Source: a virus
DNA: 64,000 nucleotides
Direction: 5' to 3' (one strand)
Virus record (IMG/VR): IMGVR_UViG_3300047472_000155
Location: 32,001-96,000 of that record
Position numbers and translations under genes: made by a program. The notes below the pieces were generated by a model. That model had not been told where the DNA came from, searched no databases, and saw nothing but the letters and a program-made list of their open reading frames with translations. Below, in pieces: positions 1 through 62,154 of the stretch (position 1 is its first letter; every line of letters begins with the position of its first letter).

Positions 1-288
1 GTATATGATATTTGCAAAGTTTTAAGAATAATACAACCTCTCTAACAGAAAAGAATGGATCGCCACCACACAGAGTTATTCCGTCAATTAAAGGATTATT
101 TTTGATATCATCAATAATCTCTAATTGTCTATTGTAAGTAAATTCTTCACCATACTTGAAATCCCAAGCTGCTTCATTGAAACAACCTGGGCAAGCATGT
201 TTACATCCACTTATAAATAATACAGAACGTAATCCGTGTCCTTCATTAATACTCTCTTTATAATATCCTGAAAGGTACACAAATTCAT
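1..288 (-). CDS. nrdG: Anaerobic ribonucleotide reductase activating protein (truncated by window edge)
   Basis: Hand translation MNLCTFQDIIKESINEGHGLRSVLFISGCKHACPGCFNE..GITLCGGDP; radical-SAM CxxxCxxC motif; directly downstream of nrdD. Confidence 0.93.
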
Positions 289-296
289 CTCCTAAT

Positions 297-2159
297 TTAA
301 TTTGTTGAGTGTTTGACTCTATCTCTTTCTTCTGCACGTTTTCCAGAATTGAACCTAGTAAGCAGATTGCCAACCAGATAGCCTGTGATGCGTCTAATTT
401 TGACGATACGACCACCTGACTCTAACTCTCCACACTGTGGACACGACTCCCCTATGACTCCGTCATAGCCGCAGGAATTGCACTTGTCAATTGGATGGTT
501 AATGCTGAAATACCCTACATTATTTTTTAATGCAAATTGAACAATTTTTTTAAATGCATCTGGATTGTTTTTCATATTTCCATCAACTTCTACATAACAT
601 ATATGTCCTGCGTTTGTGAGTTCATGGAAAGGAGCTTCTAATTCTATTTTCTTATGCGCTTGTATTTGATAGTATACAGGAATATGATTAGAATTTGTAA
701 TATATTCTCTATCAGTTACTCCATCAATAATTCCATACTCTTTCTGATTCATTTTAGCAAACTTACCAGCTAACGACTCCGCAGGAGTTGCAAACAACGT
801 AATGTTTGAATCTAAATCTTCTGACCACGTGTCACAAAAATCACGCATAAACTTGATGATATCATATCCAATTTTCCAAGCTTCTTCATCTTCTCCGTGA
901 TGCTTTCCTACAAGCGCCTTAAGGCACTCTGCAAGACCAACAAAGCCAATAGACAAACTACCATGCTTTAATATATCTCCAACTTTCTCTTCTGGATCAA
1001 GCTTTTCTCCATCCATCCATGTCCCATTAGCCATCATAAAATCACTTGCTTTTGCAGGCTGATTTTTTTGAATTCTATATCTATGAACAAGTCCTTCAAG
1101 ACATATCAACATAACTTCTTCAAGCTTATTATAGAAATACTCAATGTCACCCTTAGATTCAATCCCAATCTTTGGTAAATTAATGCTATTAAAACTAAGA
1201 TTTCCCCTACCTGACTGATGGTTGTCACCATGTCTATTTGAAATTACTCTTGTACGACATCCCATTGTGCCAATAATTGTGTCAGGGTCTTCTTCTTTGT
1301 AGTATTGAAGATTGTATGTTGCATCAACATTTACAAAGTTAGGGAACAAACGTTTGCTTGAACATTCTACAGCTTTCTGGAATAAATCGTAATTTACTTC
1401 TCCTTCGTTCTGATTAATTCCTTGCTTGCATTGAAAAATCAATTGAGGGAATATTGCCGTTTCACCATGACCCAATCCATTGATTGAAGCTTGTAGAATT
1501 GACTCACTAACAAGTCTTCCTTCCCATGATGTACACACACCAAAACAAATACTTGAGAATGGAACCTGTCCACCTGCACGTGAAGCCATTGTGTTGAGAT
1601 TGTGAATCATACTTTCCGCAGCTTGAAGTGTTTCATTTTTCGTTTCTTTCATAGCAAATAACTCCGCACTTGCATGAGTACCTTTGAAATATTCAAGACC
1701 TTTTTTGTAATGTTTGTTGTACGATTTCTTAACATATGGAGCCAAATCCCAATCAATCTTACTTGCACCACATCCACCATATTGTGAGTTTTGTTGTGCT
1801 TGAAATATAATTGCCACTTGTGCCATTGCTGTAGAAATACTGTTTGGGGTACGAACACTACCTTTATCCCCTACTGTAAAGCCACTTGCCAATATTTTTT
1901 CGAAAGGTATAAAGATACAATTATGCGTTCCAAGTGCATAAAAATCTAAATCATGAATATGCATATATCCCTGCTTCATATATTCCATAATAAATTCTGG
2001 AATAATATATTTCATTGCATACTCTTTACACGCTTCGCTTCCCATTTTTCCCATTTTACCGCTAAATGATTCGCCATTAACATTCGCATTCTCTCTAATA
2101 ATATCAAGATTTTGAGTGTCAATAACATCTTTGCCAAGTTTCAAAAATGTGTCTGTCAT
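297..2159 (-). CDS. nrdD: Class III (anaerobic) ribonucleoside-triphosphate reductase, no ATP cone
   Basis: HIHDLD, MGCRT, GRGNLSF, ATPAES, C-terminal CxxC..CxxC and RRITGYL glycyl-radical loop; start moved to ATG at 2159 (RBS AGGAGAG) because the upstream extension overlaps tRNA-Gly. Confidence 0.96.
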   Translation of the reverse strand: MTDTFLKLGKDVIDTQNLDIIRENANVNGESFSGKMGKMGSEACKEYAMKYIIPEFIMEYMKQGYMHIHDLDFYALGTHNCIFIPFEKILASGFTVGDKGSVRTPNSISTAMAQVAIIFQAQQNSQYGGCGASKIDWDLAPYVKKSYNKHYKKGLEYFKGTHASAELFAMKETKNETLQAAESMIHNLNTMASRAGGQVPFSSICFGVCTSWEGRLVSESILQASINGLGHGETAIFPQLIFQCKQGINQNEGEVNYDLFQKAVECSSKRLFPNFVNVDATYNLQYYKEEDPDTIIGTMGCRTRVISNRHGDNHQSGRGNLSFNSINLPKIGIESKGDIEYFYNKLEEVMLICLEGLVHRYRIQKNQPAKASDFMMANGTWMDGEKLDPEEKVGDILKHGSLSIGFVGLAECLKALVGKHHGEDEEAWKIGYDIIKFMRDFCDTWSEDLDSNITLFATPAESLAGKFAKMNQKEYGIIDGVTDREYITNSNHIPVYYQIQAHKKIELEAPFHELTNAGHICYVEVDGNMKNNPDAFKKIVQFALKNNVGYFSINHPIDKCNSCGYDGVIGESCPQCGELESGGRIVKIRRITGYLVGNLLTRFNSGKRAEERDRVKHSTN

Positions 2160-2218
2160 GTGAATCTCTCCTTTAAATAAGTATTCCCCCATCCTTATAT
2201 AAGGTGGGGGAATCTCAA

Positions 2219-2290
2219 AGCGGATAACGAGACTCGAACTCGCAACCTTTTGGGTGGAAGCCAAACGCTCTACCATTGAGCTATATCCGC
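2219..2290 (-). tRNA. tRNA-Gly(UCC), CCA not encoded
   Basis: Cloverleaf GCGGATA..TATCCGC; anticodon arm TTTGG-CT TCC AC-CCAAA; GTTCGAGT T-loop. Confidence 0.93.
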
Positions 2291-2326
2291 ATATGAAAGC
2301 CCTAATTAAAGGGCTATTTGTATTTA

Positions 2327-2677
2327 TTATTCATTACCTTTTATTCCATAAGCTTTATGAATTGCAATATTTATTACTCTTTGTGCCTTCATAAGATAAT
2401 GATCTACTCTCGCACCTTCATTATCACCATACATAAGACGCATAAGTAAATACAACTCTGGATAACATGATCTCCAATTCCATTTCTCAATTTCTAGATA
2501 CCTATATTCATATCCAAAATATTCCTTAGCTAATTCAATTTCACTAGTAGTTAAAGTCATATTTTTTTTGATATGATCATAAGAATGATTTAATATTGTT
2601 TCAATTTCATTTTGATACGCCTTAAAACGCTTTTGATCTTCAATCATTAAACGTCCAATATCAAACAGTTCAATCAT
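2327..2677 (-). CDS. Hypothetical protein
   Basis: 116-aa ORF on the locally transcribed strand. Confidence 0.6.
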   Translation of the reverse strand: MIELFDIGRLMIEDQKRFKAYQNEIETILNHSYDHIKKNMTLTTSEIELAKEYFGYEYRYLEIEKWNWRSCYPELYLLMRLMYGDNEGARVDHYLMKAQRVINIAIHKAYGIKGNE

Positions 2678-2833
2678 TATATCTTTTCTAATTTTTCCCA
2701 GCGCTTCCCACTCATTGTCTCCGTAATGCTTAAAATAGCTTACCTCTACACTCTCACTCTTCCTCTTTAATCTGATTAAAGGACGTTTATTTTTTACGTA
2801 GATAACATCCTCATCTCACTAAAAACTACGTAT

Positions 2834-2905
2834 TGCTGCGCCTTAGAATCGAACTAAGTTAACAAGGCTTATGAGACCTCACCGGATATCCAACCCGCCG
2901 CCAGC
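2834..2905 (-). tRNA. tRNA with CAU anticodon (Met or Ile2), irregular acceptor stem
   Basis: Anticodon arm GAGGT-CT CAT AA-GCCTT; T-arm CTTAG-TTCGATT-CTAAG. Confidence 0.75.
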
Positions 2906-2913
2906 TATAAGTA

Positions 2914-2985
2914 TAGGGATAAGGAGAATCGAACTCCTGTCTAGTCCTTATCAGAGACTAATAATAACCACTATAAGATATCCCA
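2914..2985 (-). tRNA. tRNA-Ile(GAU)
   Basis: AGTCT-CT GAT AA-GGACT; T-arm AGGAG-TTCGATT-CTCCT; acceptor GGGATA/TATCCC; weak D stem. Confidence 0.8.
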
Positions 2986-2990
2986 TCATT

Positions 2991-3078
2991 TGGTGGCAAG
3001 GGATGGAATTTAACCACCTAAGATTGTAAATCACTCCCGTTACATGGGAGCGCGACTCATCATCTTCGCCGCCTTGCC
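2991..3078 (-). tRNA. tRNA-Tyr(GUA), long variable arm, CCA encoded
   Basis: GGCAAGG/CCTTGCC-A-CCA; CTCCC-AT GTA AC-GGGAG; atypical T-loop TTAAATT. Confidence 0.85.
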
Positions 3079-3087
3079 ATATTATAA

Positions 3088-3327
3088 TTAACTTTCTATT
3101 ACTTTCCAATCTTCAAGTTTAAGGTCTTCATCAATCAACAGAAACATTGGCATGTCGTTATTAGTAAACTCAACGATTATCAATTTTCCTTTTTCATATT
3201 CTGGACATTTGTTAGGATCATTGTACGTTTCCTCTGCAAGACATACACGATACTTACCACCATAACTTAGCGAATCACCAATATACTCGATTCTCATTCC
3301 TTCTTTTACATTAGAAACGTTCAACAT
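3088..3327 (-). CDS. Hypothetical protein
   Basis: 79-aa ORF with AGGAGAG RBS. Confidence 0.65.
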   Translation of the reverse strand: MLNVSNVKEGMRIEYIGDSLSYGGKYRVCLAEETYNDPNKCPEYEKGKLIIVEFTNNDMPMFLLIDEDLKLEDWKVIES

Positions 3328-3347
3328 GTTATGATCTCTCCTAAAGA

Positions 3348-3623
3348 TTAAATTGAAACTACACCTTCATCGTATCCAAATAAATAATACTCGCTACCGT
3401 TTGAAGTAAAATCAAGACGATAGTCACCTTGGCGATAACTAAATTCAATTTCTCCAAACCCATCAAGAATAAATTCTTCTGTGTTTATTGCTTGTTGATC
3501 TAAATCGTCTACACGTAAAATTGTTGTATTATTTCTTAAATCAGTAATCAAGTAGTATGTCTGTGGATTTGATGCAAAGAATCCTTCTAAAGCTTGCAAC
3601 AATGTAATGTCTTGATCCATCAT
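3348..3623 (-). CDS. Hypothetical protein
   Basis: 91-aa acidic ORF with AGGAGG RBS. Confidence 0.7.
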   Translation of the reverse strand: MMDQDITLLQALEGFFASNPQTYYLITDLRNNTTILRVDDLDQQAINTEEFILDGFGEIEFSYRQGDYRLDFTSNGSEYYLFGYDEGVVSI

Positions 3624-3631
3624 TTTACCTC

Positions 3632-3850
3632 CTAAAGTTTTTGTCTTCGTAAACTCTCAACAGAACAGTATTCTTCGTATTCTTCTTCGCCAATATTTAC
3701 AACAACCATAATGTCAACACTTCCATTTTCATTGTATGTTGCATTTGAAATGTACACATTTTCTGGCTTTAACTTTAAACCATTCTCATTGGCATTGATC
3801 TTTTTCAAGATTGTTTCTTTGTCAATGAAAACTTTAACATGTCTTAACAT
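3632..3850 (-). CDS. Hypothetical protein
   Basis: 72-aa ORF with AGGAGG RBS. Confidence 0.7.
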   Translation of the reverse strand: MLRHVKVFIDKETILKKINANENGLKLKPENVYISNATYNENGSVDIMVVVNIGEEEYEEYCSVESLRRQKL

Positions 3851-3880
3851 GATTTACCTCCTTTTATTATTAAAGAGATT

Positions 3881-3979
3881 AGGTGACGGAAGGAATTGAA
3901 CCTCCAAACTACTCTACCTGAGTTGTTAGCGGATTTGAACCGCCGTGTTCGTGTGCACCGAACTGCAACCAGCATCACC
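3881..3979 (-). ncRNA. tRNA-like RNA with two T-arms
   Basis: Acceptor GGTGATG/CGTCACC; internal arms GTTCG-GTGCACA-CGAAC, GCGG-TTCAAAT-CCGC, ACTC-AGGTA-GAGT and terminal T-arm GGAGG-TTCAATT-CCTTC. Confidence 0.7.
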
Positions 3980-3985
3980 ATGATA

Positions 3986-4059
3986 TGCGTCAGACAGGAC
4001 TCGAACCTGCAAGATTTGCGTTCTTAGCGCAAAATGTTTGCCAATTACATCACTGACGC
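3986..4059 (-). tRNA. tRNA with AAG anticodon (Leu), short variable loop
   Basis: GCGTCAG/CTGACGC; TTGCG-CT AAG AA-CGCAA; GCAGG-TTCGAGT-CCTGT. Confidence 0.85.
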
Positions 4060-4091
4060 AAAATGTAGTCTTTCGACTACTAAAATTCATT

Positions 4092-4744
4092 TTATCTTAC
4101 ATTTGCATAACTTATAAAGTTTCTAATTTTTGAAATTGTAGTAGTACCAACACCATACTCTTTTGCCAAAGATATTCCTGTTTTCATTGAATTTCTGATG
4201 TATCTAATATCTTCTTCTGAGAACATTTTATTATGATCAGCGTCACTTTTTCTTTCTAATGATTGATAATCTATATCAGACAATATATGTTTCCATTTTT
4301 TGCCACTCCAAATATTCTTTATAGTACCTCTATCTACTCCAAATATTTTTGAAAGCTCTGTTGGAGAATTTGTAGTATTCATTCTTATACTTATTACACT
4401 TTCTTCGTCAAGCTTCGATCTTCCATTATTTATACCAATTGCACTTCTTCCTCTAGAAACTCTATCCATAACATTGTCTTGATGTGTACCAGTTTCTAGA
4501 TGATTTGGATTAATGCAGAATGAATTGTCGCACTTGTGACGAATTACAAGACCATCTTCTATCTTGTTGCCACTAAATAATTCATATATATACCTATGCA
4601 TTATTAATTGGACACCATTTCTCTCTACTTTGTAACCATGTCTCTTTTTTGCATGAGACACACAAACCCAACATTCATTTTCAACTTCATATTCAATCTT
4701 TCTTGCTCTTGGAGATAGTCTTTAATAGTAAATATTTCTTTCAC
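4092..4744 (-). CDS. HNH homing endonuclease with C-terminal HTH-like repeats; apparent 1-nt frameshift near 4722
   Basis: HR..IRHKCDNSFCINPNHLETGTHQDN motif; the RBS-linked GTG at 4744 is out of frame with the body. Confidence 0.8.
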
Positions 4745-4822
4745 ATAACTTTTCCTCTCTAAAAATTGATTAATAGAGAATTTTTGTTGGGAGTTTACCC
4801 CAATCATGCGTGAAAAATTCTA

Positions 4823-4904
4823 TACTGGCGAGGAGACTCGAACTCCCAATCCCGAAGGCTGCGCATTTTAAGTGCGCAATGTATGCCAATTCCATCACAC
4901 CAGC
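4823..4904 (-). tRNA. tRNA-Leu(UAA)
   Basis: GCGCA-CT TAA AA-TGCGC; variable arm CC-TTCG-GG; standard T-arm. Confidence 0.93.
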
Positions 4905-4910
4905 AAAATA

Positions 4911-4988
4911 TCTGAACGGCTGGATTTGAACCAGCGTAAGCTCCTCCTTCCAAGGGAGGCGAGATAAGCCAAACTCCTCTACGTCCAG
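4911..4988 (-). tRNA. tRNA-Pro(UGG)
   Basis: CTGGACG/CGTTCAG; CCTCC-CT TGG AA-GGAGG; GCTGG-TTCAAAT-CCAGC. Confidence 0.92.
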
Positions 4989-5044
4989 TTAATAAAAAGT
5001 GTACGTTACTTTTCGATTTGTTGTTTACGTACAAACAGTCCCAA

Positions 5045-5115
5045 TAGCGTGTACGGGGATCGAACCCGTGATACCGTATAGAAAGTACGGAGTCTTACCA
5101 CTTGACCAACACGCC
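5045..5115 (-). tRNA. tRNA-Glu(UUC)
   Basis: GGCGTGT/ACACGCT; CCGTA-CT TTC TA-TACGG; ACGGG-TTCGATC-CCCGT. Confidence 0.92.
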
Positions 5116-5125
5116 ATATTGAATA

Positions 5126-5419
5126 GGTTTTTTCTTCGAAAGGGAAAACCATCTAACCCTTGCACAGCGCTATGCGTTTATGGAAAACTCGAAACCTTTG
5201 CATCTTATGGTAATGCAATAACCCCTCTACACATGTGGAATTGTAGTCAACCTCTGCGATCTTGGGAAGTGCAGTCACACCACTACTCTTATGGCAATAG
5301 TAGCAAACCCTACATATATGGAATGTAGCGAACCTCTAGTCTTGTGGCTGAGAACTAGTAGACCTCTTACTTTCTGGATAGTAAAGTAAACCTTGCATTT
5401 TTATGGATCTGCATAAACC
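5126..5419. repeat. Array of nine mini-hairpins, ~28-nt period, invariant TGG (+)/CCA (-) in each loop and ACC/GGT linkers; candidate ncRNA
   Basis: Loop TGG at 5181, 5208, 5236, 5263, 5292, 5319, 5345, 5375, 5404; stems differ in sequence but pair (TTGCAT/ATGCAA, CTACA/TGTAG, CTACT/AGTAG, CTAGT/ACTAG, TTACT/AGTAA). Confidence 0.85.
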
Positions 5420-5421
5420 AA

Positions 5422-5492
5422 AGCCCTGTGACAGAATTGAACTATCGTTTGCGGGTTACAAAACCGCCGTTCTACCATTAAACTAAAAGGGC
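5422..5492 (-). tRNA. tRNA-Thr(UGU)
   Basis: GCCCT/AGGGC acceptor; GCGG(T)-TT TGT AA-(C)CCGC; T-arm GATAG-TTCAATT-CTGTC. Confidence 0.85.
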
Positions 5493-5500
5493 ATATAAAG

Positions 5501-5586
5501 GGTGCATAACAGGACTTGAACCTGCAAGAAGAGTACTCTTCACGAAGTTCACAGCTTCGCGCGTTTACCATTTCGCCATACACACC
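5501..5586 (-). tRNA. tRNA-His(GUG) with G-1:C73 pair and an unusual long variable arm
   Basis: 8-bp acceptor GGTGTGTA/TATGCACC; CGAAG-CT GTG AA-CTTCG; variable arm GAAGAG-TA-CTCTTC. Confidence 0.88.
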
Positions 5587-5598
5587 ATATTACTTATT

Positions 5599-5808
5599 TT
5601 AAAATCGCTCACATTCAACCAATACATCATGTTCAGCAATATCAAAAATGAATTTATTAATTTCATAGAATACCTTAACAACATAATTCTGAATTCCATA
5701 TGAATCAAGTTCTGGAATTACTGCAACTATTTCACAAACAACATCAACGTCATCCATATACGACTTGAATTTTTCTCCAATTTCAAATACTTCAATCACT
5801 ACATACAC
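5599..5808 (-). CDS. Hypothetical protein
   Basis: ~69-aa ORF with GAGG RBS-like sequence. Confidence 0.55.
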   Translation of the reverse strand: MYVVIEVFEIGEKFKSYMDDVDVVCEIVAVIPELDSYGIQNYVVKVFYEINKFIFDIAEHDVLVECERF

Positions 5809-5837
5809 CTCTTTTAAATTGTAGTTAAATAATATAA

Positions 5838-6193
5838 TATTTCCAACATGTCAGCCACGTACAAACCATCAAGGGCAATTTACAACTCCCTATTAAACTA
5901 AACCGTGGATTTTATCGAATTGGCTAGTTAGGACTTATCTTGCCTAACTTCTTAGCCATGAAAATTGCACCTTCACCTTTGACTCTGCGTCTCTGGCAGA
6001 ATAAGAGTCTTGAGTCGTGACAATTGAATGCTTTGAGCGTTGAGTCTTGAACTTTATATCCAATTTGTATAATTTGATATATCGTATCAAATAATCTTAT
6101 ATTTGCTCCTATAGCAAGGAATTGTATTAACAATGTTAACCCACATTGTAAGAAAGGTGTAAGAGTTCAATGGTTTTCGACATATTGGAAATA
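5838..6193 (-). ncRNA. Candidate structured RNA (~355 nt) with internal 7-nt tandem repeats
   Basis: 15-bp closing helix TATTTCCAATATGTC/GACATGTTGGAAATA, then AAACCATTGA/TTGATGGTTT (G-U pairs on the minus strand); CCACG/CGTGG possible pseudoknot; heptamer run at 6005-6055. Confidence 0.75.
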
Positions 6194-6246
6194 GGTAGTT
6201 TTATTTATTTAAGGTGCATGATCTACCAAACAAACACATCATCATA

Positions 6247-6897
6247 CTATTCCGAAACTTCAATCGTTGTTACAACATTACTTGTAGACAAGATGAAGTC
6301 ACATTCGTTTTCAAATTCTTCAATCTCGGATGTCAATTTTTCAATCAATTCTTTAAGACCTACTGGATCAATAAGTTTTGGCTTATTGTCTTTACTGAAA
6401 TTCTTTGTGATTTCCTGAATTTCAATATCTCTTCCATCTCTCTTACCATCTTTACCAAGATTGAGAATTGTTTCAATACGATGATTTAGTGCTGATTCAT
6501 AGCTGTTATTGCTATTCTCAAGAGAATTTAATACCTTGTTGTGTTGGTACTTAAGTGTGCTAAGATATGTTTTATCGTAAGAGATTGAAGTTTTACGTTC
6601 AATAACTTCTGCAACTGTATATTCTTTTCCGCTAGGGAACGTAACTACAGTAATGGCATTTGATGCAACAATTTTAGATTTAATCTCATTTCTACGTGCA
6701 ATGAGAGAATTGATCTTGTCAACAGATGCTTTCGCACTTGTCTCATATTGTTCTACTGTGATGTGACCACCAATAAGCTTGTCGCCAGTTTGAATCGTAG
6801 TCAACTGTGCCTCATTGATTGCTCTTGTAATTCTAGCATCCAACAATTTAAGTTCATTTAAAGCCCTGGTAATTGAGTAACTAATAGTCATTTGCAC
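6247..6897 (-). CDS. Coiled-coil protein resembling the DIP1984/DUF6847 family
   Basis: Pattern ITRAL.ELK.L..RI..IK..IV.SNA.T.V..TVAEVIERK..LIDP..L..ECDF.LS.SN..T.IEV; AGGAG RBS; own sigma-A promoter. Confidence 0.7.
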   Translation of the reverse strand: MQMTISYSITRALNELKLLDARITRAINEAQLTTIQTGDKLIGGHITVEQYETSAKASVDKINSLIARRNEIKSKIVASNAITVVTFPSGKEYTVAEVIERKTSISYDKTYLSTLKYQHNKVLNSLENSNNSYESALNHRIETILNLGKDGKRDGRDIEIQEITKNFSKDNKPKLIDPVGLKELIEKLTSEIEEFENECDFILSTSNVVTTIEVSE

Positions 6898-7038
6898 ATT
6901 CTCCTTTTTCCCTTTGAATTTGTTTTATCTTTGATTTATATATTGTATCAAAAAACTCAACGATACTAACGAGGCTGGTAGGGGATTAACATCGTCAAGT
7001 TTTTTCATACAACATCTCGTTCTCAACTCTACTTCTAT

Positions 7039-7067
7039 AGTATATCATTTTATCTTTCATTTGTCAA
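7039..7067 (-). promoter_or_regulatory. Sigma-A promoter with conserved spacer
   Basis: TTGACA-AATGAAAGATAAAATGA-TATACT. Confidence 0.85.
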
Positions 7068-7089
7068 GTACTTTTTAAAATTATTTAAT

Positions 7090-7173
7090 TGGCAAAGGAG
7101 GGGAGAATCGAACTCCTTGGGAACGGTTTTGGAGACCGCCTTATTACCTCTCCAATTTAACCCTCTCTCCCTC
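7090..7173 (-). tRNA. tRNA-Trp(CCA), enlarged D region, CCA end encoded
   Basis: GCGGT-CT CCA AA-ACCGT; GGAG-TTCGATT-CTCC; ends G-CCA. Confidence 0.8.
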
Positions 7174-7182
7174 ATGTTCTTT

Positions 7183-7211
7183 ATTATACCATTTTATCTT
7201 GTATTTGTCAA
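7183..7211 (-). promoter_or_regulatory. Sigma-A promoter for tRNA-Trp
   Basis: TTGACA-AATACAAGATAAAATGG-TATAAT (consensus, with TG extension). Confidence 0.9.
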
Positions 7212-7234
7212 GCACTATTTTTTTACTCTTTAAT

Positions 7235-7583
7235 AATGTAGTCATAGTAACCGTCCATCCTCACCTATGACACAATAGGTCGATCAATCCTATTGATCCT
7301 CACGTTAATCATTTATCTAACAACCTAATGTTGGTCTCAATGATTAACATTACCAATATAGTACCCTCCTACTACCTACTATATTGAGTAGCGGTTCACT
7401 CATGACAATATCACCACCACTTGCCCTCATAGTCCGTTGTAACGTCTCTATTCATGAGTTTCAACGTTACGCTCTTTCGGAGCTACTACGCAACATGATA
7501 AACACTAATATTATATCACTTGCATTGTGATCTCATCGGCTTATTTTATTGCCGACATTCGATATTGTGTTCATCACCTTACA
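7235..7583 (-). ncRNA. Candidate multi-hairpin ncRNA (~345 nt)
   Basis: No ORF; at least 8 hairpins in two closed domains; promoter at 7590-7618. Confidence 0.65.
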
Positions 7584-7589
7584 TAAAGA

Positions 7590-7618
7590 ATTATATCACA
7601 CTTACAATAGAAAGTCAA
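7590..7618 (-). promoter_or_regulatory. Sigma-A promoter
   Basis: TTGACT-N17-TATAAT with TG extension. Confidence 0.8.
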
Positions 7619-7649
7619 GCACAATATAAAATGAAAGTAAAATTATTTT

Positions 7650-8843
7650 TTACAAGTCGGCAAATACCTTAGAGGACTCAGAACGAATATCTTCTTGAAG
7701 ACACATAATACCAACTAATGGATTACCTTTAAGTCCTTCAATAGCTGCTATAAGACCGTTATTATGTGTATATTTGTCTTCTGCTTGATTAATATCTCCA
7801 CTAAATACTACACACGCATTCTTGCCCAAACGTGTACCGATAAGCTTGATAGTTTTCTTGTCAAGGTCTTCCGCTTCATCTACAAGAATAAATGTGTCAG
7901 AGATAGATAATCCTTTCATAAACCAAGGAATCTCTTTCTTAATCTTATTATTTTGTTGCATTGCTGCCAATTCAAACTCTCCACCATTAAGATGCTGAAT
8001 GATTGGTCTAAAAAAGTCTGCTGTTTTTTCGTCTTTACTACCAGGTAAGAACCCAATTTCTTCTCCACCAGCTCCAGACGGATTACGTACCATCATCAAC
8101 GAACTATACTTCTTCTTACTATTAGAGCCATTTACAAATTCAAGAGCAGTCTTAACAGCAAGATACGTTTTACCGCTTCCATAAGTTCCTGTAATGATCT
8201 TAATAGGGATATCTTTATCCCAAAGCAAGTCTAATGCACATGCTTGATGTGCATTTTGAGCAGTAACAACACGTTCAGGTGGAAGGTCTATATCTACTAG
8301 AAACTCTCCATTCCAACGTGCACAATGGAATTCCCCATTAAAGTCAATGATAAGATATTCATTTATCAACAGCTCAAACATATTGGTATTGTCTTCGTAA
8401 ATTTCAGCAAGTTCTTCATCATTGTCAACTTTGATTTCTTTGAACCCTTGGTATGAAGTGTCTTTTGATTTATCTTCATCAGCTTCAATTAATTCAATTC
8501 CATATCCTTCTGCCTTGAATTGTAATAGAATATCATTTGTAATCAATCCATAATCCTTTTCAAGACAAGCTTTAATAATCATGTTGTCAACGTAAGTGTT
8601 TTCATATGGGTCTTCGGCATTCCATGTGTAATCCGAAAGATCAAAATGAATTAGATCATTTTCTTTTCTTTCTTTAATCCATCTTACAGCCTTTCTTGCT
8701 TTGAATGCCAAATCTCTCTTTTCTCTATTGCCCTTATGTTTCTCCAATTCTCTTAATACATGAGATAAAATTACAATCTCCTTATTCTCAAGTAATCCAA
8801 GATCATCCAGCAGGGTATTGGTATCCACCACAAATTTTGTCAT
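7650..8843 (-). CDS. phoH: PIN-PhoH (PhoH2/YlaK-like) protein
   Basis: N-terminal PIN (VVDTN..VLRELE..DN.II..TND.LL); Walker A GTYGSGKT; IGFLPG; DEAED; GD..Q. Confidence 0.92.
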   Translation of the reverse strand: MTKFVVDTNTLLDDLGLLENKEIVILSHVLRELEKHKGNREKRDLAFKARKAVRWIKERKENDLIHFDLSDYTWNAEDPYENTYVDNMIIKACLEKDYGLITNDILLQFKAEGYGIELIEADEDKSKDTSYQGFKEIKVDNDEELAEIYEDNTNMFELLINEYLIIDFNGEFHCARWNGEFLVDIDLPPERVVTAQNAHQACALDLLWDKDIPIKIITGTYGSGKTYLAVKTALEFVNGSNSKKKYSSLMMVRNPSGAGGEEIGFLPGSKDEKTADFFRPIIQHLNGGEFELAAMQQNNKIKKEIPWFMKGLSISDTFILVDEAEDLDKKTIKLIGTRLGKNACVVFSGDINQAEDKYTHNNGLIAAIEGLKGNPLVGIMCLQEDIRSESSKVFADL

Positions 8844-8880
8844 AGCTCTACATCCTCTCAGTAGCTTCTATTTTTTATAG

Positions 8881-8913
8881 AAAAAAGGGCAGGGATTTTA
8901 CACCCTGCCCTTA
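8881..8913 (-). terminator. Intrinsic terminator after HU
   Basis: AAGGGCAGGG/CCCTGCCCTT stem with U-tract on the minus strand. Confidence 0.75.
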
Positions 8914-8942
8914 GTTTCATTATTTTGTTAAAACCTTATTAA

Positions 8943-9239
8943 TTACTTTACAGAATTTTTCAGACCTGTAACACGAAGACCAACTGTTTTTGTTTCTGGA
9001 ATATCAATTGATTCGCCTGTCTGTGGATTGCGACCAGTGTGTGCTGCACGTGTACGAACTTCATATACACCATGACCTTGTAGTGCTACATCGTCACCAT
9101 TTGCCAATGAGGTATAAAGTGCTGTCAGTACTGCGTCAACTGCGCGAGCTGCATCTTTCTTTGTGAACTTTTCACCTTCACCAAGTTCCACCGAAGCCTG
9201 TACTACATCAATAAATTCTTTCTTTCCAAGTTGTGCCAT
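8943..9239 (-). CDS. HU/IHF-family DNA-binding protein
   Basis: V.L.G.G..EVR.RAAHTGRNPQTGE.I.IP signature. Confidence 0.95.
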   Translation of the reverse strand: MAQLGKKEFIDVVQASVELGEGEKFTKKDAARAVDAVLTALYTSLANGDDVALQGHGVYEVRTRAAHTGRNPQTGESIDIPETKTVGLRVTGLKNSVK

Positions 9240-9322
9240 TTTAACATTTCTCCTTTTTCTCTTTTGAGATAATTTTTATTTAGTCAAGTGATTCATTTTA
9301 TGTTTCACTTGTATACTACAAT

Positions 9323-9649
9323 TTACAAACCTGTCTTGATCTTAATTTTTTCTGAGTCAATTTCAGTCAAATTCTCATCGAAAAACTTAATCTCATTTAC
9401 AACATCAACATAAAGTACTCTTGTCATAAGTGCCTGATTAGTCCAATCATTGTACTTACCATTCTTGAGTTTGGGCTTATTGAATACCATATATTGCTTT
9501 ACTGATTCATCAATTATATATGTCCAATTAGGAACATCATAATTAAATTCATTATCAGTATTTACAATACACCATTTGGAAAATATAGCTTTACTCAATA
9601 TTTCATCCATCACTTCAACTCTAGATTTCTTCTTTGCCAATCTTATCAC
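9323..9649 (-). CDS. Hypothetical protein
   Basis: 108-aa ORF coupled to upstream ORF. Confidence 0.6.
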   Translation of the reverse strand: MIRLAKKKSRVEVMDEILSKAIFSKWCIVNTDNEFNYDVPNWTYIIDESVKQYMVFNKPKLKNGKYNDWTNQALMTRVLYVDVVNEIKFFDENLTEIDSEKIKIKTGL

Positions 9650-9839
9650 CTACTTCTTTGCTTTCATGACAGAGATAACTAGAAAGAACTTCTAAACAAA
9701 TGTGCGTTTTGTTGTTCTTATATCTAGCAAAGTAGTCATTCCACTCATTCAGTATTTCCTCAACAACAATTTTCTTTTGTTCGAAAGGAATCTCATTGTC
9801 AAGATCAATCTTCTTGCCATTCGGTAGTATTAACTTCAT
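9621..9839 (-). CDS. Hypothetical protein
   Basis: 72-aa ORF, AAGGA RBS, promoter directly upstream. Confidence 0.65.
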   Translation of the reverse strand: MKLILPNGKKIDLDNEIPFEQKKIVVEEILNEWNDYFARYKNNKTHICLEVLSSYLCHESKEVGDKIGKEEI

Positions 9840-9864
9840 GTTGCGTTCCTTCCTTACATTAGTA

Positions 9865-10135
9865 ATTATACCATTTTATCTTTCATTTGTCAAGCATTTT
9901 TTATTACTGATCTTTCTGAGCATTGAATGTTTCTCCTTAACATGTTACTATTATACCACTTTATAATGCCTTTGTCAAGCATTATTTTTAATATTCTGTT
10001 TTCAAGGAACAATATACTATAGTTATATAGGAAAGTCTTTGGACCGCTTGGTCTTTTGTAGCTCCTTGTAAATAAGGACTTTTATTTCTTTCCCTTAACT
10101 AACTATAGTATACCATTTTATCTTTCGTTTGTCAA
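9865..10135 (-). promoter_or_regulatory. Three tandem sigma-A promoters (9865-9893, 9950-9978, 10107-10135)
   Basis: TTGACA-N17-TATAAT/TATACT; two share the spacer GAAAGATAAAATGG. Confidence 0.8.
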
Positions 10136-10169
10136 CAGTTATTTTTATAGGACTCTAAAATCATCCCGA

Positions 10170-12488
10170 TCAAGCCATAAAGTCATTACTAATCCCATCG
10201 TTGCTGAAAAGCACACTGTCAACAGAAGCGCGAAAAGAAGCGTCATTTTCATATTCCTCCTCTATTATATATCTTAGATACTTTTCATTTCCAATGGTTC
10301 CATTTAATATGTCACACAGAAACGTATTGCGTCTAAGGTTCTCAAATTTCTTAAGTGCCTCATTTATTGTTCTTGCTTGACCCAAGATAACAAGAAATTC
10401 TTCTGGTCTAGTCCAAGCTACATACAACAAGTTAGCATTTAATTGATGTGTATGAGCCTTATCGCTAATAGAGATTACTCCTCTTGCCGCTGATCCTTGG
10501 CTCTTGTGCATTGTCATACACGCCGATAAAAGTAGTTTCGCAAGTTCAGAACTCTTGAACATCACAACATCATCTTCAAATTGTATTGTCAATACTCTAT
10601 TTTGAGTGTCAATGTCAATAATAGTTCCTGTATCTCCATTCATAATGTCAACCTCTTGCTCATACTGATTTAATACTCTATATGTGTTAACATTATTCAA
10701 CACTTTATCTCCTACACGAAGAAATATTTCATTCTTATCTTTTATCATTTTAACTTCACTTACAAAATCATCTTCTTTCGGATTGATGATCTCTTGAAGT
10801 ACATTATTAATATGATAAGTTCCTAAGTTTCCTTTCTTAGTGGGAGATAATACCATCAATCCATCAACTGTATATGTCTTAACCATTCTATTGAAGTAAT
10901 GCAAATACGCCTCTTCCATTTGACCTTGAGGACAAGATACGAACAAACAGTTGTTGCCAAACTTCTTTACTCCCATAAAGTCATCTTCAATAAATTTTTC
11001 ACCTTTACGTACCATTGTAACTACGTCAAGTATTCCACCTTCTTTTTGACGAAATACAATATCAAGCAATGTAATAGGGAACACTCCGCTTTGCTGACAG
11101 TCATACAAGAAGTTTCCTGCTGACACACTTGGAATTTGGAAGCTGTCTCCTAAAAACAGAATACGTACATTCGGATTTGTAAGCTTATAAAGAAGTATCT
11201 TTGCTAATTTGATATCACACATAGAACTTTCATCTACAATTACAAAGTCTTCATCTACAATCATCATCCCAAATTCATCTTCACTTGAACCTATGCCCAC
11301 TTTTTTATGAATAGTGAAAGCATCTTCCTTAGTATATTTCTTCAACACCTTAGAAGCTTTTCCTGTCGGTGCAAGTAACGCAAATGTCAATCCTAATTCT
11401 TTGGCAAGTTCAATTATCAACTTTTGCATCATACTTTTACCTGTACCCGCATAACCAATCAAGAAGTTTACAGCATTTTTCTTTAAATTCACAAACAAAC
11501 TTCTTTGTTGATGAGTTAATTTTATTTTGTACTTGTCTTCCATTCTCTTAATAAAGTCTTCGATATCGAAATTTAATTCTGCGGAATGTTCTTGTAACTT
11601 ATTCAATTTATATGACACTTGTACTTCTAATTTGAAATTACTTTCAAGAGCGAATTTGCCATCAATATCAACAATGTCTTCAACATTTGGCAATTCCTTG
11701 GTGATTAATTCCTTTTTAAGCTTAAGAAGCTTATAAGAATCCATTATTAACTTCTGTCTTAAGATATACGTGTCACCATTGCTTTCAACTTCTCTAATGG
11801 AATATCTTATCGCAGCATGAATTCTAAAAGGACTTTCCTCATCTACTCCCATTTGAAGTGCAATGTCATCCGCTGTTTTAAATCCTATTCCAGCAAAATC
11901 CGTCATGATGTATGGGTTCTCTCTAAGCTTTTCTGCTAACACTTTTGCCGTTGGGTATCTTCCCATTAACTTGTGAAGCATTGAGTAGTCTAACATAGGG
12001 AACTCATTGTGTAACTCAAGAAGTTCAAGATTTTTTAGAATTTTATCTCTAAATATTGGATAAGTAATTTCTCCAAATCCATATACCTTCTTATATTCAA
12101 AGGTATCATCTTTTAATAACTCAATGATATCATGCCCTTTGTATACGTTCATAATTGACTCAAATTGCAATGGAGTTACAAGCATCTTGATAAATCTTTC
12201 TTGTTGTTCTGGAGTCGATGGAATGTCTTGTTTCATTCTGTTGATTTTATAACTCCATCCCCACTTGGGATCATTTCTATCAAGTGTAGCTTCCATCATC
12301 CATATTGATCCAACATCCAATCTGTGTACAATACCATTTACCGATAAGTTGCCATACTTATTCACATGAACATCTTCTAGCGAATAGTCTTCATAATTTA
12401 CAAGGCTAACGCCATAACTTCCCCACCCAGAATCTTCTCTATATGCAATTTCACGATCAATTCTAACTTCAACCTCAATCTTACTCAT
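10170..12488 (-). CDS. recD2: RecD2-like SF1B helicase
   Basis: NPY..GIGFK.AD HhH; GYAGTGKS; APTGKA; DESSM; GD..QIPSV; MTMHKSQGS; LLYVAWTR; start at 12488 with GGAGG RBS. Confidence 0.93.
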   Translation of the reverse strand: MSKIEVEVRIDREIAYREDSGWGSYGVSLVNYEDYSLEDVHVNKYGNLSVNGIVHRLDVGSIWMMEATLDRNDPKWGWSYKINRMKQDIPSTPEQQERFIKMLVTPLQFESIMNVYKGHDIIELLKDDTFEYKKVYGFGEITYPIFRDKILKNLELLELHNEFPMLDYSMLHKLMGRYPTAKVLAEKLRENPYIMTDFAGIGFKTADDIALQMGVDEESPFRIHAAIRYSIREVESNGDTYILRQKLIMDSYKLLKLKKELITKELPNVEDIVDIDGKFALESNFKLEVQVSYKLNKLQEHSAELNFDIEDFIKRMEDKYKIKLTHQQRSLFVNLKKNAVNFLIGYAGTGKSMMQKLIIELAKELGLTFALLAPTGKASKVLKKYTKEDAFTIHKKVGIGSSEDEFGMMIVDEDFVIVDESSMCDIKLAKILLYKLTNPNVRILFLGDSFQIPSVSAGNFLYDCQQSGVFPITLLDIVFRQKEGGILDVVTMVRKGEKFIEDDFMGVKKFGNNCLFVSCPQGQMEEAYLHYFNRMVKTYTVDGLMVLSPTKKGNLGTYHINNVLQEIINPKEDDFVSEVKMIKDKNEIFLRVGDKVLNNVNTYRVLNQYEQEVDIMNGDTGTIIDIDTQNRVLTIQFEDDVVMFKSSELAKLLLSACMTMHKSQGSAARGVISISDKAHTHQLNANLLYVAWTRPEEFLVILGQARTINEALKKFENLRRNTFLCDILNGTIGNEKYLRYIIEEEYENDASFRASVDSVLFSNDGISNDFMA

Positions 12489-61247: not shown

Positions 61248-62135
61248 ATGTTCAAAAATATTAAGAGATATGATAGTTCAGAAGGCGTAGTTTGGAAGTA
61301 TGTCTTTGAAAAAGAAGATGCCGTAACAGAAGCAGTTCTTTATAAGTACAATACTTTTGAAGATAGAACAGTGGTATGTTGTTCTGTCCAGTCAGGATGT
61401 CCTATCGGATGTACATTTTGTGGTACTGGAAATAAGTTTATTAGAAATTTAACTCCAGATGAAATTGTAGCTCAAGTAACACATGTATTTAGTGATATGG
61501 ATATCAAGGACATAAATAGTAGATGTAAAAAATTGCAAATTATGTTCATGAGCATGGGTGAACCTATGACAAATTGGAAGAATGTCGAAGAAGCAATTTC
61601 ACAATTAAATAACCTTTATCCTAACGCTCAATTACTTATCTCTACTATCGGAGTAGATAATGATGCAATTTTCTCTAAAATAATTCAAACGTCAAAAAGA
61701 ATATCAAAAGTTGGACTTCAATTCTCTATTCATCAAGCTTTTGATACTGATAGAGATAATCTCATTCCATTTAAAAATAAAATGTCACTTAGAAAAATAA
61801 GAGACGCAGGAACAATTTGGAGCCAAGAAACAGGACGAAAAGTGTATTTAAATTATTGTGTTGATGGAAAGAATGTTTCCAAAGAACACTTAGACAGATT
61901 AAAAGACTTGTTCAGTCCTACAACTTTTAATTTTACATTTAGCGTTGTGTGTAGCGCAGATGAAACAATGAAAGATTCTGGATATAGAAATCATGAAAAG
62001 ATTAAAGAAGTAATGAGTTCATTTTTAGAGGATGGATACAATGTAAGAATGTTTGATCCTGCGGGACAAGATGATATTGGTGGTGGATGTGGTCAGTTGT
62101 GGTATGTTCAACAATGGATGAATGAATATAAATAA
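61248..62135 (+). CDS. RlmN/Cfr-like radical SAM RNA methyltransferase (short N-terminus)
   Basis: CCSVQSGCPIGCTFC; MSMGEP; SIH; DIGGGCGQL. Confidence 0.85.
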   Translation: MFKNIKRYDSSEGVVWKYVFEKEDAVTEAVLYKYNTFEDRTVVCCSVQSGCPIGCTFCGTGNKFIRNLTPDEIVAQVTHVFSDMDIKDINSRCKKLQIMFMSMGEPMTNWKNVEEAISQLNNLYPNAQLLISTIGVDNDAIFSKIIQTSKRISKVGLQFSIHQAFDTDRDNLIPFKNKMSLRKIRDAGTIWSQETGRKVYLNYCVDGKNVSKEHLDRLKDLFSPTTFNFTFSVVCSADETMKDSGYRNHEKIKEVMSSFLEDGYNVRMFDPAGQDDIGGGCGQLWYVQQWMNEYK

Positions 62136-62154
62136 AAAAGGAGATGAAATAAAT

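What the first reader, a model, noticed from the sequence alone, without database searches (positions are those of the whole stretch)
5126..5419. Nine tandem mini-hairpins with an invariant CCA (UGG) loop triplet inside the tRNA cluster
Seen: nine units with 26-30 nt spacing. Stems differ in sequence but all pair, each loop has TGG on the plus strand, and each linker has ACC. On the tRNA-coding minus strand the loops show UCCA, UCCA, GCCA, UCCA, GCCA, CCCA, UCCA, ACCA, UCCA, with GGU linkers. That resembles a tRNA discriminator plus CCA end. Inference: a multivalent decoy for proteins that recognise tRNA CCA ends (such as CCA-targeting toxins), a repeat-RNA antitoxin mimic like pseudo-ToxI, or CCA donors for the phage ligases. 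The strand is uncertain, since several G-U pairs favour plus. On plus, UGGN loops could pair with tRNA NCCA as the T-box bulge does, and 6 of 9 loops carry a CsrA-type GGA.
Basis: partly seen in the sequence, partly recalled or inferred. Interest (0 to 1): 0.82.

Follow-up and report, generated by a model that had tools for sequence, protein, structure and literature searches.

The report
Covarying mini-hairpin array in phage tRNA operon
Between two tRNA genes of an uncultured 167-kb Paenibacillus-type phage lies a real, evolutionarily maintained string of nine to ten tiny RNA hairpins that all keep a CCA in the loop and a GGU in the linker; it matches no described RNA family and its job is unknown, most plausibly a multi-site docking or decoy RNA.

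Summary
On the + strand, ACC (10 times) and TGG (9 times) alternate without exception over 5156-5419. That gives a chain of 19, against at most 7 in 5000 shuffles and at most 5 elsewhere in the window. Each TGG sits in the loop of a 4-7 bp hairpin. The arms of a unit pair with each other and not with those of other units (0 of 20,000 permutations).

The array lies at the same place, between tRNA-Thr and tRNA-Glu, in three other related phage genomes. Orthologous stems there are rebuilt by compensatory changes, while TGG and ACC stay fixed. I found it in no other relative, nowhere else in this phage, in no phage-collection record, in none of 151 Paenibacillaceae genomes and not in Rfam.

Wobble pairs do not favour the + strand (they are balanced). 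Consensus promoters lie only on the tRNA (-) strand, so the RNA most likely shows NCCA loops and GGU linkers.

Membership of ToxI-type antitoxins, CsrB-type sponges and TIGR guide arrays fails on defining features. No partner was found and function is unproven. My best guess is a multivalent protein-binding or decoy RNA released during tRNA processing. The main rival is a cis-acting, self-folding spacer.

The parts
5422..5492 (-). tRNA-Thr(UGU), with no encoded CCA. Its 3' end abuts the array, which starts 5'-UUGGU... on the minus strand.
   Evidence: ARAGORN; Rfam tRNA 56.7 bits; sequence
5390..5419 (-). Unit 10. + strand stem TGCA 5394-5397 / TGCA 5410-5413; loop TGG at 5404 (minus strand UCCA); flanked by ACC at 5390 and 5417.
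   Evidence: covariance-model hit 24.2 bits
5362..5392 (-). Unit 9. Stem TTACTTT 5367-5373 / AAAGTAA 5383-5389 (or TTACT/AGTAA); TGG at 5375. The orthologue in L034 has a different, perfect 8-bp stem, CTTATCTT/AAGATAAG.
   Evidence: 28.9 bits
5332..5364 (-). Unit 8. Stem CTAGT 5336-5340 / ACTAG 5354-5358; TGG at 5345 (minus strand GCCA).
   Evidence: 29.4 bits
5307..5334 (-). Unit 7. Stem CTACAT 5310-5315 / ATGTAG 5323-5328; 7-nt loop with TGG at 5319. Orthologues carry wholly different paired stems: TGTTCT/AGAACA in L036 and CTGT(T)CT/AGACAG in L034.
5279..5309 (-). Unit 6. Stem CTACT 5283-5287 / AGTAG 5299-5303; TGG at 5292 (minus strand GCCA).
   Evidence: 35.4 bits
5250..5281 (-). Unit 5. 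Stem CTGC 5254-5257 / GCAG 5271-5274; TGG at 5263 (minus strand CCCA).
5221..5252 (-). Unit 4. Stem CTACA 5227-5231 / TGTAG 5242-5246; TGG at 5236.
   Evidence: 35.2 bits
5194..5223 (-). Unit 3. Stem TTGCAT 5198-5203 / ATGCAA 5213-5218; TGG at 5208 (minus strand ACCA). The L036 orthologue has CTGAAT/ATTCAG, in which two pairs changed on both sides.
5156..5196 (-). Unit 2, the best-conserved part of the array (19 nt invariant in all four genomes). It has a small stem GTTT 5176-5179 / AAAC 5185-5188 around TGG 5181. It also has a second hairpin at 5162-5175, which on the minus strand reads GCAUA-GCGC-UGUGC with a U-G pair.
5126..5150 (-). Terminal hairpin (unit 1), GGTTTT...AAAACC, with no TGG in the loop. 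In L034 it reads CGATTT...AAATCG, with two pairs changed on both sides. It lies 9 nt before the 5' end of tRNA-Glu.
5044..5116 (-). tRNA-Glu(UUC), immediately downstream of the array on the minus strand.
7039..7067 (-). Nearest upstream consensus promoter on the tRNA strand (TTGACA-17-TATACT with TG). Two more lie at 7211-7183 and 7618-7590. The scan found no terminator on this strand before 4080-4065.
   Evidence: same arrangement in L036

Best explanation
The stretch is a selected, non-coding array of nine to ten small RNA hairpins inside the phage's tRNA operon.

Shown: the units exist. Their stems are kept by compensatory change, both between units and between orthologous units of related phages. 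The loop triplet and the linker triplet are far more conserved than the rest. The array keeps its position between tRNA-Thr and tRNA-Glu.

Inferred from context: it is transcribed on the minus strand with the tRNAs, from sigma-A-type promoters upstream. Ordinary tRNA processing (RNase Z after tRNA-Thr, RNase P before tRNA-Glu) would then free a roughly 300-nt RNA. On that RNA each hairpin shows an unpaired N-CCA-Y-A-A-G loop, and each roughly 7-nt linker shows GGU.

Inferred, weakest step: the RNA works in trans as a multivalent docking or decoy RNA. Its partner would read the exposed CCA and GGU on a hairpin scaffold of any sequence, with copy number giving avidity. The partner is unknown. 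Candidates are host or phage proteins that handle tRNA ends.
For: 1. Perfect ACC/TGG alternation, far beyond chance.
2. Arms pair within a unit and not between units. Mean Watson-Crick stem is 5.1 bp for self against 3.3 bp for cross pairing, and 0 of 20,000 permutations reach the observed total.
3. On a model-fitted alignment of 14 distinct units, 90% of cells pair against 62% in shuffles. All 5 pairs show changes on both sides. The covariation score is 0.70 against 0.22 (0 of 500 shuffles). Slid registers pair at only 16-53%.
4. The array lies at the same Thr-Glu junction in L034/L035, L036 and, degraded, in L040. Orthologous stems are rebuilt in units 1, 3, 7 and 9.
5. In units 3-8 of three genomes, 1 of 39 ACC/TGG columns varies, and that one is an alignment shift. 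By comparison 15 of 62 stem columns and 14 of 67 other columns vary.
6. Single-base indels between orthologues rule out a coding reading.
7. Consensus promoters lie only on the tRNA strand in the window and in L036, and the scan found no terminator before the array.
8. Unit number differs between relatives, as expected where valency rather than exact architecture matters.
Against: 1. There are no expression data, so the strand is inferred from context only.
2. The hairpins are weak. The region folds no better than shuffled sequence on either strand.
3. No candidate partner gene co-occurs with the array. The 216-aa neighbour occurs in many array-less phages. ORF69 is missing from array-bearing L034. 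The CCA-adding enzyme is also present in an array-less relative.
4. No host counterpart of the unit was found in 151 Paenibacillaceae genomes.
5. The CCA sits at a variable distance from the stem and in loops of 5-13 nt, which is loose for a specific protein site.
6. Only four genomes carry the array, three of them fairly close, so orthologue covariation rests on few events.
7. The array is already decaying in the most distant carrier, L040.
Confidence: 0.35

Rival explanations
1. It is a cis-acting, self-folding spacer of the tRNA precursor. The hairpins keep 300 nt of untranslated RNA locally folded, so that it does not mispair with neighbouring tRNAs or load Rho or RNases. The short single-stranded triplets are processing or decay sites for a host RNase. 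The RNA has no function in trans.
For: The array sits exactly between two CCA-less tRNA genes within one operon. The hairpins are short and strictly local. Unit number and stem sequences drift freely. No partner gene was found. Close relatives do without the array, with Thr and Glu genes 10-60 nt apart.
Against: An insulator needs no invariant loop and linker triplets, yet these are the most conserved positions. Relatives that lack the array show that the tRNAs mature without it, so 300 nt kept under purifying selection needs another benefit.
Confidence: 0.25
2. The functional strand is the + strand, antisense to the tRNAs. The RNA would carry UGG(N) loops and ACC(UCU) linkers, and would act as a CsrA-type sponge, as a T-box-like binder of tRNA NCCA ends, or as an anti-Shine-Dalgarno mimic.
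For: On the + strand 6 of 9 loops carry GGA, and 3 linkers read exactly ACCUCU (a fourth reads ACCCCUCU), like the 16S 3' end. Unit 1 folds better on the + strand (-8.8 against -5.1 kcal/mol).
Against: No promoter above 9 of 12 matches lies on the + strand within about 700 nt, and none is conserved in L036 or L034. Wobble pairs are balanced, and the conserved unit-2 hairpin has its U-G pair on the minus strand. The base after UGG changes between orthologues (A, U, C, G), so GGA is not selected. A 4-bp contact without a T-box Stem I would be weak (established knowledge of T-box riboswitches).
Confidence: 0.07
3. It is a DNA-level element. Hairpins extruded from single-stranded or supercoiled DNA would serve replication priming, recombination or packaging, with ACC/TGG as a protein recognition triplet.
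For: Perfect Watson-Crick stems fold equally on both strands, and no strand asymmetry is seen.
Against: The period of 25-30 bp is variable and out of helical phase. GC skew shows no turning point at the array. The site is the middle of a tRNA operon. The stems are only 4-7 bp and AT-rich, which is poor for cruciform extrusion.
Confidence: 0.07
4. It is an RNA antitoxin mimic of a type III toxin-antitoxin system (pseudo-ToxI-like) that neutralises a host ToxN, AbiQ or CptN-type endoribonuclease.
For: It is a tandem RNA repeat in a phage with a unit size of tens of nucleotides. There is precedent in phage PhiTE pseudo-ToxI (recalled knowledge, not tested here).
Against: The units differ in stem sequence, whereas type III antitoxin repeats are near-identical because each must fold into the same toxin-binding pseudoknot. 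Units are 25-30 nt against 34-45 nt. There is no A-rich cleavage motif in register. The phage has no ToxN-family gene. No similar repeat was found in 151 Paenibacillaceae genomes.
Confidence: 0.04
5. It is a degenerate or miniature TIGR-type guide array (edge / spacer A / loop / spacer B) serving a Nop-domain Tas protein.
For: TIGR arrays occur in phages, have alternating conserved and variable segments, use a conserved CCA ('box C'), and include a stem-loop variant (PMC12045711).
Against: Here the two variable segments of a unit are complementary to each other, so they form a hairpin and are not two guides. They are 4-7 nt long, not 8-12 nt. Loops of 5-13 nt cannot hold two spacers. The loop and linker motifs differ (CCA against GGU), whereas in TIGR the motifs covary between edge and loop. 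There is no Nop-domain match in the phage. The neighbouring 216-aa protein folds like DIP1984 (3kdq), not like Nop or Tas.
Confidence: 0.03

Closest known systems
CsrB/RsmY/RsmZ-type protein-sponge sRNAs
   Same: A non-coding RNA built of many small hairpins with variable stems. Each shows the same short unpaired motif in loops and linkers, and copy number varies between relatives.
   Different: The motif is not GGA. On the transcribed strand it is CCA plus GGU. On the other strand the A after GG is not conserved. The array is embedded in a tRNA operon instead of having its own promoter and terminator. No CsrA is encoded. No RNA sponge for CsrA is known in Bacillota (recalled knowledge).
TIGR arrays, dual-repeat and stem-loop types (Faure et al. 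2025, PMC12045711)
   Same: Phage-borne tandem arrays of about 30-nt units in which short conserved motifs, including CCA, alternate with variable segments. One subtype consists of tandem stem-loops.
   Different: The variable segments are self-complementary and too short to guide. The unit is 25-30 nt, not 36 nt. The motifs are not duplicated symmetrically. No Tas/Nop protein was found.
ToxI / AntiQ / CptI type III antitoxin RNA repeats and phage pseudo-ToxI
   Same: A tandem direct RNA repeat that could be cut into units and act stoichiometrically on a protein.
   Different: The units are diverged and not identical. They are simple hairpins, not pseudoknots. There is no adjacent or phage-encoded toxin gene.
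Stable non-tRNA RNAs of phage tRNA clusters (T4 species 1 and 2, RNA C and D)
   Same: Small structured RNAs of unknown function, co-transcribed with phage tRNAs and released by tRNA-processing enzymes.
   Different: Those are single tRNA-sized molecules, not a tandem array of mini-hairpins with invariant triplets.
Guanidine-II (mini-ykkC) riboswitch
   Same: Function resides in tiny hairpins with free-varying stems and an invariant loop motif (ACGR), used in tandem.
   Different: It has two hairpins with self-complementary loops that kiss, placed upstream of a regulated gene. Here there are nine units and CCA loops that cannot pair with each other. There is no Rfam hit.

Membership tests
Type III TA antitoxin RNA (ToxI-like) | Near-identical direct repeats of about 34-45 nt | tested here: not met
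   Units are 25-38 nt with different stems. Tandem Repeats Finder finds no array. The unit alignment has mean column identity 61%.
Type III TA antitoxin RNA (ToxI-like) | A cognate ToxN/AbiQ/CptN-family toxin gene next to the array or in the genome | tested here: not met
   No PF13958 match in the 166.8-kb phage. The neighbours are tRNA genes.
Type III TA antitoxin RNA (ToxI-like) | Inhibits a host toxin (the pseudo-ToxI case) | not testable with these tools
   The host is unknown. No unit-like repeat was found in 151 Paenibacillaceae genomes.
CsrB/Rsm-type CsrA sponge | Conserved (A)GGA in hairpin loops and linkers of the transcribed strand | tested here: not met
   GGA occurs only on the strand antisense to the operon, in 6 of 9 loops. 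The A is replaced by U, C or G in orthologues.
CsrB/Rsm-type CsrA sponge | Own promoter and Rho-independent terminator | tested here: not met
   No promoter or terminator flanks the array on either strand.
TIGR array (dual-repeat or stem-loop) | Two non-complementary 8-12 nt spacers per unit, each flanked by box D (UG) and box C (CCA) | tested here: not met
   The variable segments are 4-7 nt and mutually complementary. Loops are 5-13 nt. Definition taken from PMC12045711.
TIGR array (dual-repeat or stem-loop) | Associated Tas protein with a Nop domain | tested here: inconclusive
   There is no PF01798 match in the phage. The neighbouring 216-aa protein's best fold match is 3kdq, with no Nop or Tas chain among the listed matches. 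Tas proteins are very diverged, and not every phage protein was folded.
T-box-like tRNA 3'-end binder | UGGN presented in a bulge of a leader RNA, with a Stem I/specifier that anchors the tRNA, upstream of a regulated gene | tested here: not met
   UGGN is on the untranscribed strand. There is no T-box hit in Rfam at E<=1 and no downstream regulated ORF.
Any Rfam 15 family | Covariance-model match | tested here: not met
   Only the flanking tRNAs match in 1-12000 at E<=1.
CRISPR array / solitary repeat units (RNA anti-CRISPR) | Identical repeats separated by spacers, or a repeat copy matching a host CRISPR repeat | tested here: not met
   There are no spacers and the units are not identical. 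A match to host repeats could not be tested because the host is unknown.

The most novel reading that the evidence does not exclude
The minus-strand RNA is a phage counter-defence decoy. Nine constrained NCCA loops, with GGU linkers, would imitate the single-stranded 3' end of tRNAs. They would soak up a host factor that binds or damages tRNA CCA ends, for example a CCA-trimming HEPN RNase or a nucleotidyltransferase or pyrophosphokinase toxin. The decoy would work alongside the phage's own tRNA set, CCA-adding enzyme and RNA ligase. This would be a new class of RNA-based anti-defence.
Probability: 0.1. Interest if true: 0.85.

Novelty: new variant of a known kind. Interest (0 to 1): 0.55.

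Why it matters
Phage tRNA clusters are increasingly seen as counter-defence loci, but their non-tRNA RNAs are almost unexplored. This array is a compact, clearly selected RNA module. Its architecture is any stem, an invariant CCA loop and an invariant GGU linker, repeated about nine times, which points to multivalent recognition by an unknown partner. Finding that partner would either reveal a new RNA decoy or sponge in Bacillota phages or define a new kind of processing signal in polycistronic tRNA precursors. The element is small enough to be synthesised and tested directly. Its narrow distribution (four metagenomic genomes) and unknown host limit its immediate reach.

Tried and rejected
1. 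Tandem Repeats Finder finds nothing at the array.
2. Whole-region folding gives z-scores of +0.6 and +0.8, so thermodynamics gives no support.
3. Rfam at E<=1 gives only tRNAs.
4. blastn of 4800-5800 against 50,697 phage records gives only tRNA hits.
5. First relatives found through the 216-aa neighbour in IMG/VR (30-38% identity) have no array. My generic hairpin-array detector was too noisy with 4-bp stems. Its strong hits in L015, L026, L027 and L030 were unrelated perfect 59-nt repeats.
6. A search with the PhoH-like protein found no relatives.
7. An exact 18-mer of the conserved unit 2 hit only the known relative in IMG/VR and six chance coding matches in metagenomes.
8. A genome-contig scan with the 216-aa alignment found nothing.
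9. The covariance model R1 found no unit outside the array in the whole phage, in 39 related loci, in three Paenibacillus genomes or in 151 Paenibacillaceae genomes. Only the top candidates per genome were scored there, so this means 'not found', not 'absent'.
10. Strand call from wobble pairs: balanced, so rejected.
11. Complementarity of the loops to the neighbouring heptamer-repeat RNA: none. Its repeat is GACUCAA.
12. Derivation from the tRNA-Trp anticodon arm: no likeness.
13. Anticodon-arm or T-loop mimicry: rejected by inspection. Loop sizes are 5-13 nt, there is no U33-type frame, and UUCCA occurs in only 4 of 9 loops.
14. DnaA-box likeness of the minus-strand loops: only 7 of 9 positions match in one or two units, and this does not explain stem covariation.
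15. Partner-gene hunts. ORF69 (5599-5808) is shared with L036 and L040 but missing in L034. The CCA-adding enzyme is present in both complete carrier genomes and absent in four array-less IMG/VR relatives. It is, however, present on the array-less Paenibacillus contig, so it is not specific. There is no CsrA, ToxN, RtcB or Nop.
16. Two literature searches found no description of such an array. They did surface TIGR-Tas, which was then tested and rejected.

Full report
WHAT IS THERE. The window is part of a 166,838-bp IMG/VR virus record. Its nearest cultured relatives are large Bacillota siphoviruses: Geobacillus virus E3 and the Tsamsa group, at about 38-44% identity over the RecD-like helicase. 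The nearest bacterial NrdD homologues are almost all from Paenibacillus (55-58%). The nearest isolate-borne relative of the neighbouring gene is on a Paenibacillus contig. The host is therefore probably Paenibacillus or a close kin; this is an inference.

The finding lies on the minus strand between tRNA-Thr (5422-5492) and tRNA-Glu (5044-5116), inside a run of minus-strand tRNA genes.

THE OBSERVATION. On the + strand, ACC occurs at ten positions and TGG at nine between 5156 and 5419. They alternate strictly and no other copy of either triplet intervenes. This chain of 19 events compares with a mean of 2.1 and a maximum of 7 in 5000 dinucleotide-preserving shuffles. The next best chain in either strand of the 64-kb window has 5.

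Each TGG lies in the loop of a small hairpin:
- TTGCAT/ATGCAA
- CTACA/TGTAG
- CTGC/GCAG
- CTACT/AGTAG
- CTACAT/ATGTAG
- CTAGT/ACTAG
- TTACTTT/AAAGTAA
- TGCA/TGCA
- GTTT/AAAC, in the longer unit at 5156-5196

A further hairpin at 5126-5150 has no TGG.

Two points need correcting. First, the hairpins are weak: the region as a whole is no more stable than shuffled sequence. Second, the supposed excess of G-U pairs on the + strand disappears when all units of four genomes are scored. Positions that would be G-U on one strand or on the other are 5 v 5 at the inner stem end and 2 v 3 at the outer end.

IS THE STRUCTURE SELECTED? Three tests say yes.
- Within the array family, the 5' arm of a unit pairs with its own 3' arm (mean contiguous Watson-Crick stem 5.1 bp). 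It does not pair with the 3' arms of other units (3.3 bp). None of 20,000 permutations of the arms among 20 distinct units reaches the observed total.
- On an alignment of 14 distinct units fitted to a five-pair model, 90% of cells form standard pairs, against 62% after shuffling (0 of 500). All five pairs show changes on both sides. Sliding the partner by 1-3 columns drops pairing to 16-53%. The alignment was fitted to the structure, which inflates such counts somewhat.
- Orthologues exist. The 216-aa gene upstream (6247-6897) has close homologues in public assemblies, and their contigs were fetched.

The array is present at the same Thr-Glu junction in L034/L035 (neighbour protein 92% identical) and in L036 (80%). 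It is present in a partly decayed form in L040, the same contig as L043 and L057 (62%).

In the four-way alignment, units 1-8 are recognisably orthologous, and several stems have been rebuilt:
- Unit 3: TTGCAT/ATGCAA becomes CTGAAT/ATTCAG.
- Unit 7: CTACAT/ATGTAG becomes TGTTCT/AGAACA.
- Unit 9: a 5-7 bp stem becomes the perfect 8-bp CTTATCTT/AAGATAAG.
- Unit 1: GGTTTT/AAAACC becomes CGATTT/AAATCG.

Over units 3-8 in three genomes, 15 of 62 stem columns and 14 of 67 loop or linker columns vary. Only 1 of 39 ACC/TGG columns varies, and that one is a one-base alignment shift. Single-base indels between orthologues exclude a protein-coding reading.

The invariant parts are CCA and GGU on the minus strand, together with the two closing pairs of the stem (C-G, U-A) and a looser loop consensus N-CCA-Y-A-A-G.

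DISTRIBUTION. A covariance model of the unit (R1) finds the units only in the array. I searched:
- the whole phage;
- 39 loci from related phages, including relatives at 48-63% identity that carry the same gene order (RecD2, HU, PhoH, 216-aa gene, tRNAs, NrdD) but have tRNA-Thr and tRNA-Glu 10-60 nt apart;
- three Paenibacillus genomes and 151 Paenibacillaceae genomes (only the best candidates were scored, so this means 'not found in those searched').

The phage collection gives only tRNA matches, Rfam gives nothing, and the exact core of unit 2 gives only chance hits in metagenomes. The element is therefore confined, as far as can be seen, to one small clade of uncultured phages. Unit number changes within that clade: L034 has extra units at both ends, and L040 has insertions and units that have lost TGG.

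WHICH STRAND? There is no direct evidence. Three consensus sigma-A-type promoters (11-12 of 12 matches, with the extended -10 TG) lie on the minus strand at 7618, 7211 and 7067. The scan found no terminator on that strand until 4080-4065. On the + strand nothing better than 9 of 12 lies within about 700 nt. L036 shows the same picture, and L034 has no good antisense promoter.

The best-conserved small hairpin, in unit 2, has a U-G pair on the minus strand that would be a C-A mismatch on the + strand. Unit 1 is better on the + strand, so these two cancel out. I conclude from context that the array is transcribed with the tRNAs. Neither flanking tRNA gene encodes CCA, so RNase Z and RNase P (established Bacillota tRNA processing) should release an RNA of about 305 nt with NCCA loops and GGU linkers.

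WHAT DOES IT DO? Nothing here shows function.

The anatomy is a scaffold of arbitrary stems holding two short invariant single-stranded triplets, repeated about nine times, with variable copy number. This is the anatomy of multivalent recognition, as in CsrB/Rsm sponges. I therefore rank a trans-acting docking or decoy RNA first (0.35).

A purely cis role as a self-folding spacer or processing punctuation comes second (0.25). It explains the location and the lack of a partner gene, but not the invariant triplets or why 300 nt are maintained when relatives manage without.

- CsrA-type: rejected. It lies on the wrong strand, the A of GGA is not conserved, and the phage has no CsrA.
- T-box-like: rejected. 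It lies on the wrong strand and there is no Stem I.
- Pseudo-ToxI: rejected on repeat identity, unit size and the absence of a toxin gene.
- CCA-end decoy: open but weak. The phage encodes a genuine CCA-adding enzyme (PF01743, PF12627 and PF13735) next to an RNA ligase, which shows investment in tRNA-end maintenance. The enzyme is present in both complete carrier genomes and absent in four array-less IMG/VR relatives. It also occurs on the array-less Paenibacillus contig, so no specific association can be claimed. An internal CCA in a loop also lacks the free 3' end that most CCA-directed enzymes need.

COMPARISON WITH TIGR ARRAYS. A literature search brought up TIGR-Tas (PMC12045711). These are phage arrays in which conserved 'edge' and 'loop' repeats, each ending in CCA, alternate with two spacers. 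There is also a stem-loop subtype.

The resemblance is superficial:
- Here the two variable segments are complementary to each other and only 4-7 nt long.
- The loops are too short to hold two 8-12-nt spacers.
- The two conserved motifs differ from each other.
- No Nop domain is detectable.
- The adjacent 216-aa helical protein, modelled at pLDDT 90, resembles the DIP1984 protein (3kdq) and BAR-like bundles, not Nop or Tas.

VERDICT. The array is a real and undescribed structured element under selection. It most likely acts as RNA on the tRNA strand, and its function is unknown. It resembles multi-hairpin sponge RNAs in design, but it is not a member of any named family that I could test.

Noticed in passing
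window 62122-63063 and 63408-64000 (runs on; L097:1408-2664): The phage encodes an RNA ligase (PF09414, 313 aa). Directly after it comes a full CCA tRNA nucleotidyltransferase (PF01743, PF12627, PF13735; 418 aa). Most of its tRNA genes lack an encoded CCA, so this looks like a tRNA-end repair and maturation module.
   Followed up: partly
window 5117-5196 (minus strand): The conserved 3' part of the array may form a pseudoknot. UCGA and AAGGG upstream can pair with CCCUU and UCGA inside the loop of the terminal GGUUUU/AAAACC hairpin. A few compensatory changes in L034 and L036 support this (RNAalifold).
   Followed up: no
L015:2150-2510, L026:1280-1640 (also L027, L030): In GC-rich phage contigs that carry a distant homologue of the 216-aa gene, about six perfect tandem copies of a 59-nt GC-rich repeat lie 3.5-4.7 kb upstream of that gene. 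They are unrelated to the hairpin array.
   Followed up: no
L039:6194-6269, L041:6120-6193, L042:6127-6199: Array-less relatives carry predicted suppressor-type tRNAs right after tRNA-His. The anticodon is CUA (called tRNA-Pyl by ARAGORN) in two of them and UUA in one. This hints at stop-codon reading in this phage group.
   Followed up: no
window 5599-5808 (minus strand): A 69-aa acidic ORF lies between the heptamer-repeat RNA and tRNA-His. It is conserved in array-bearing L036 (69% identity) and L040 (61%), but is absent from array-bearing L034 and from all array-less relatives examined.
   Followed up: partly
window 7039-7618 (minus strand): Three near-perfect extended -10 sigma-A promoters lie within 600 nt. 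One sits directly before an 82-nt tRNA-Trp and one before the 216-aa gene. The same pair of 12-of-12 promoters is kept in L036.
   Followed up: partly
L007:3939-4348: A distant relative's tRNA cluster contains a phage-borne tmRNA gene (tag ANNNTEIVMVHPALIAALEGAAA).
   Followed up: no
window 6247-6897: The 216-aa neighbour, labelled 'tail fiber' by PHROG 1491, models confidently (pLDDT 90) as a long helical bundle with small beta elements. Its best PDB match is the uncharacterised DIP1984 protein 3kdq, so the PHROG label looks wrong.
   Followed up: partly
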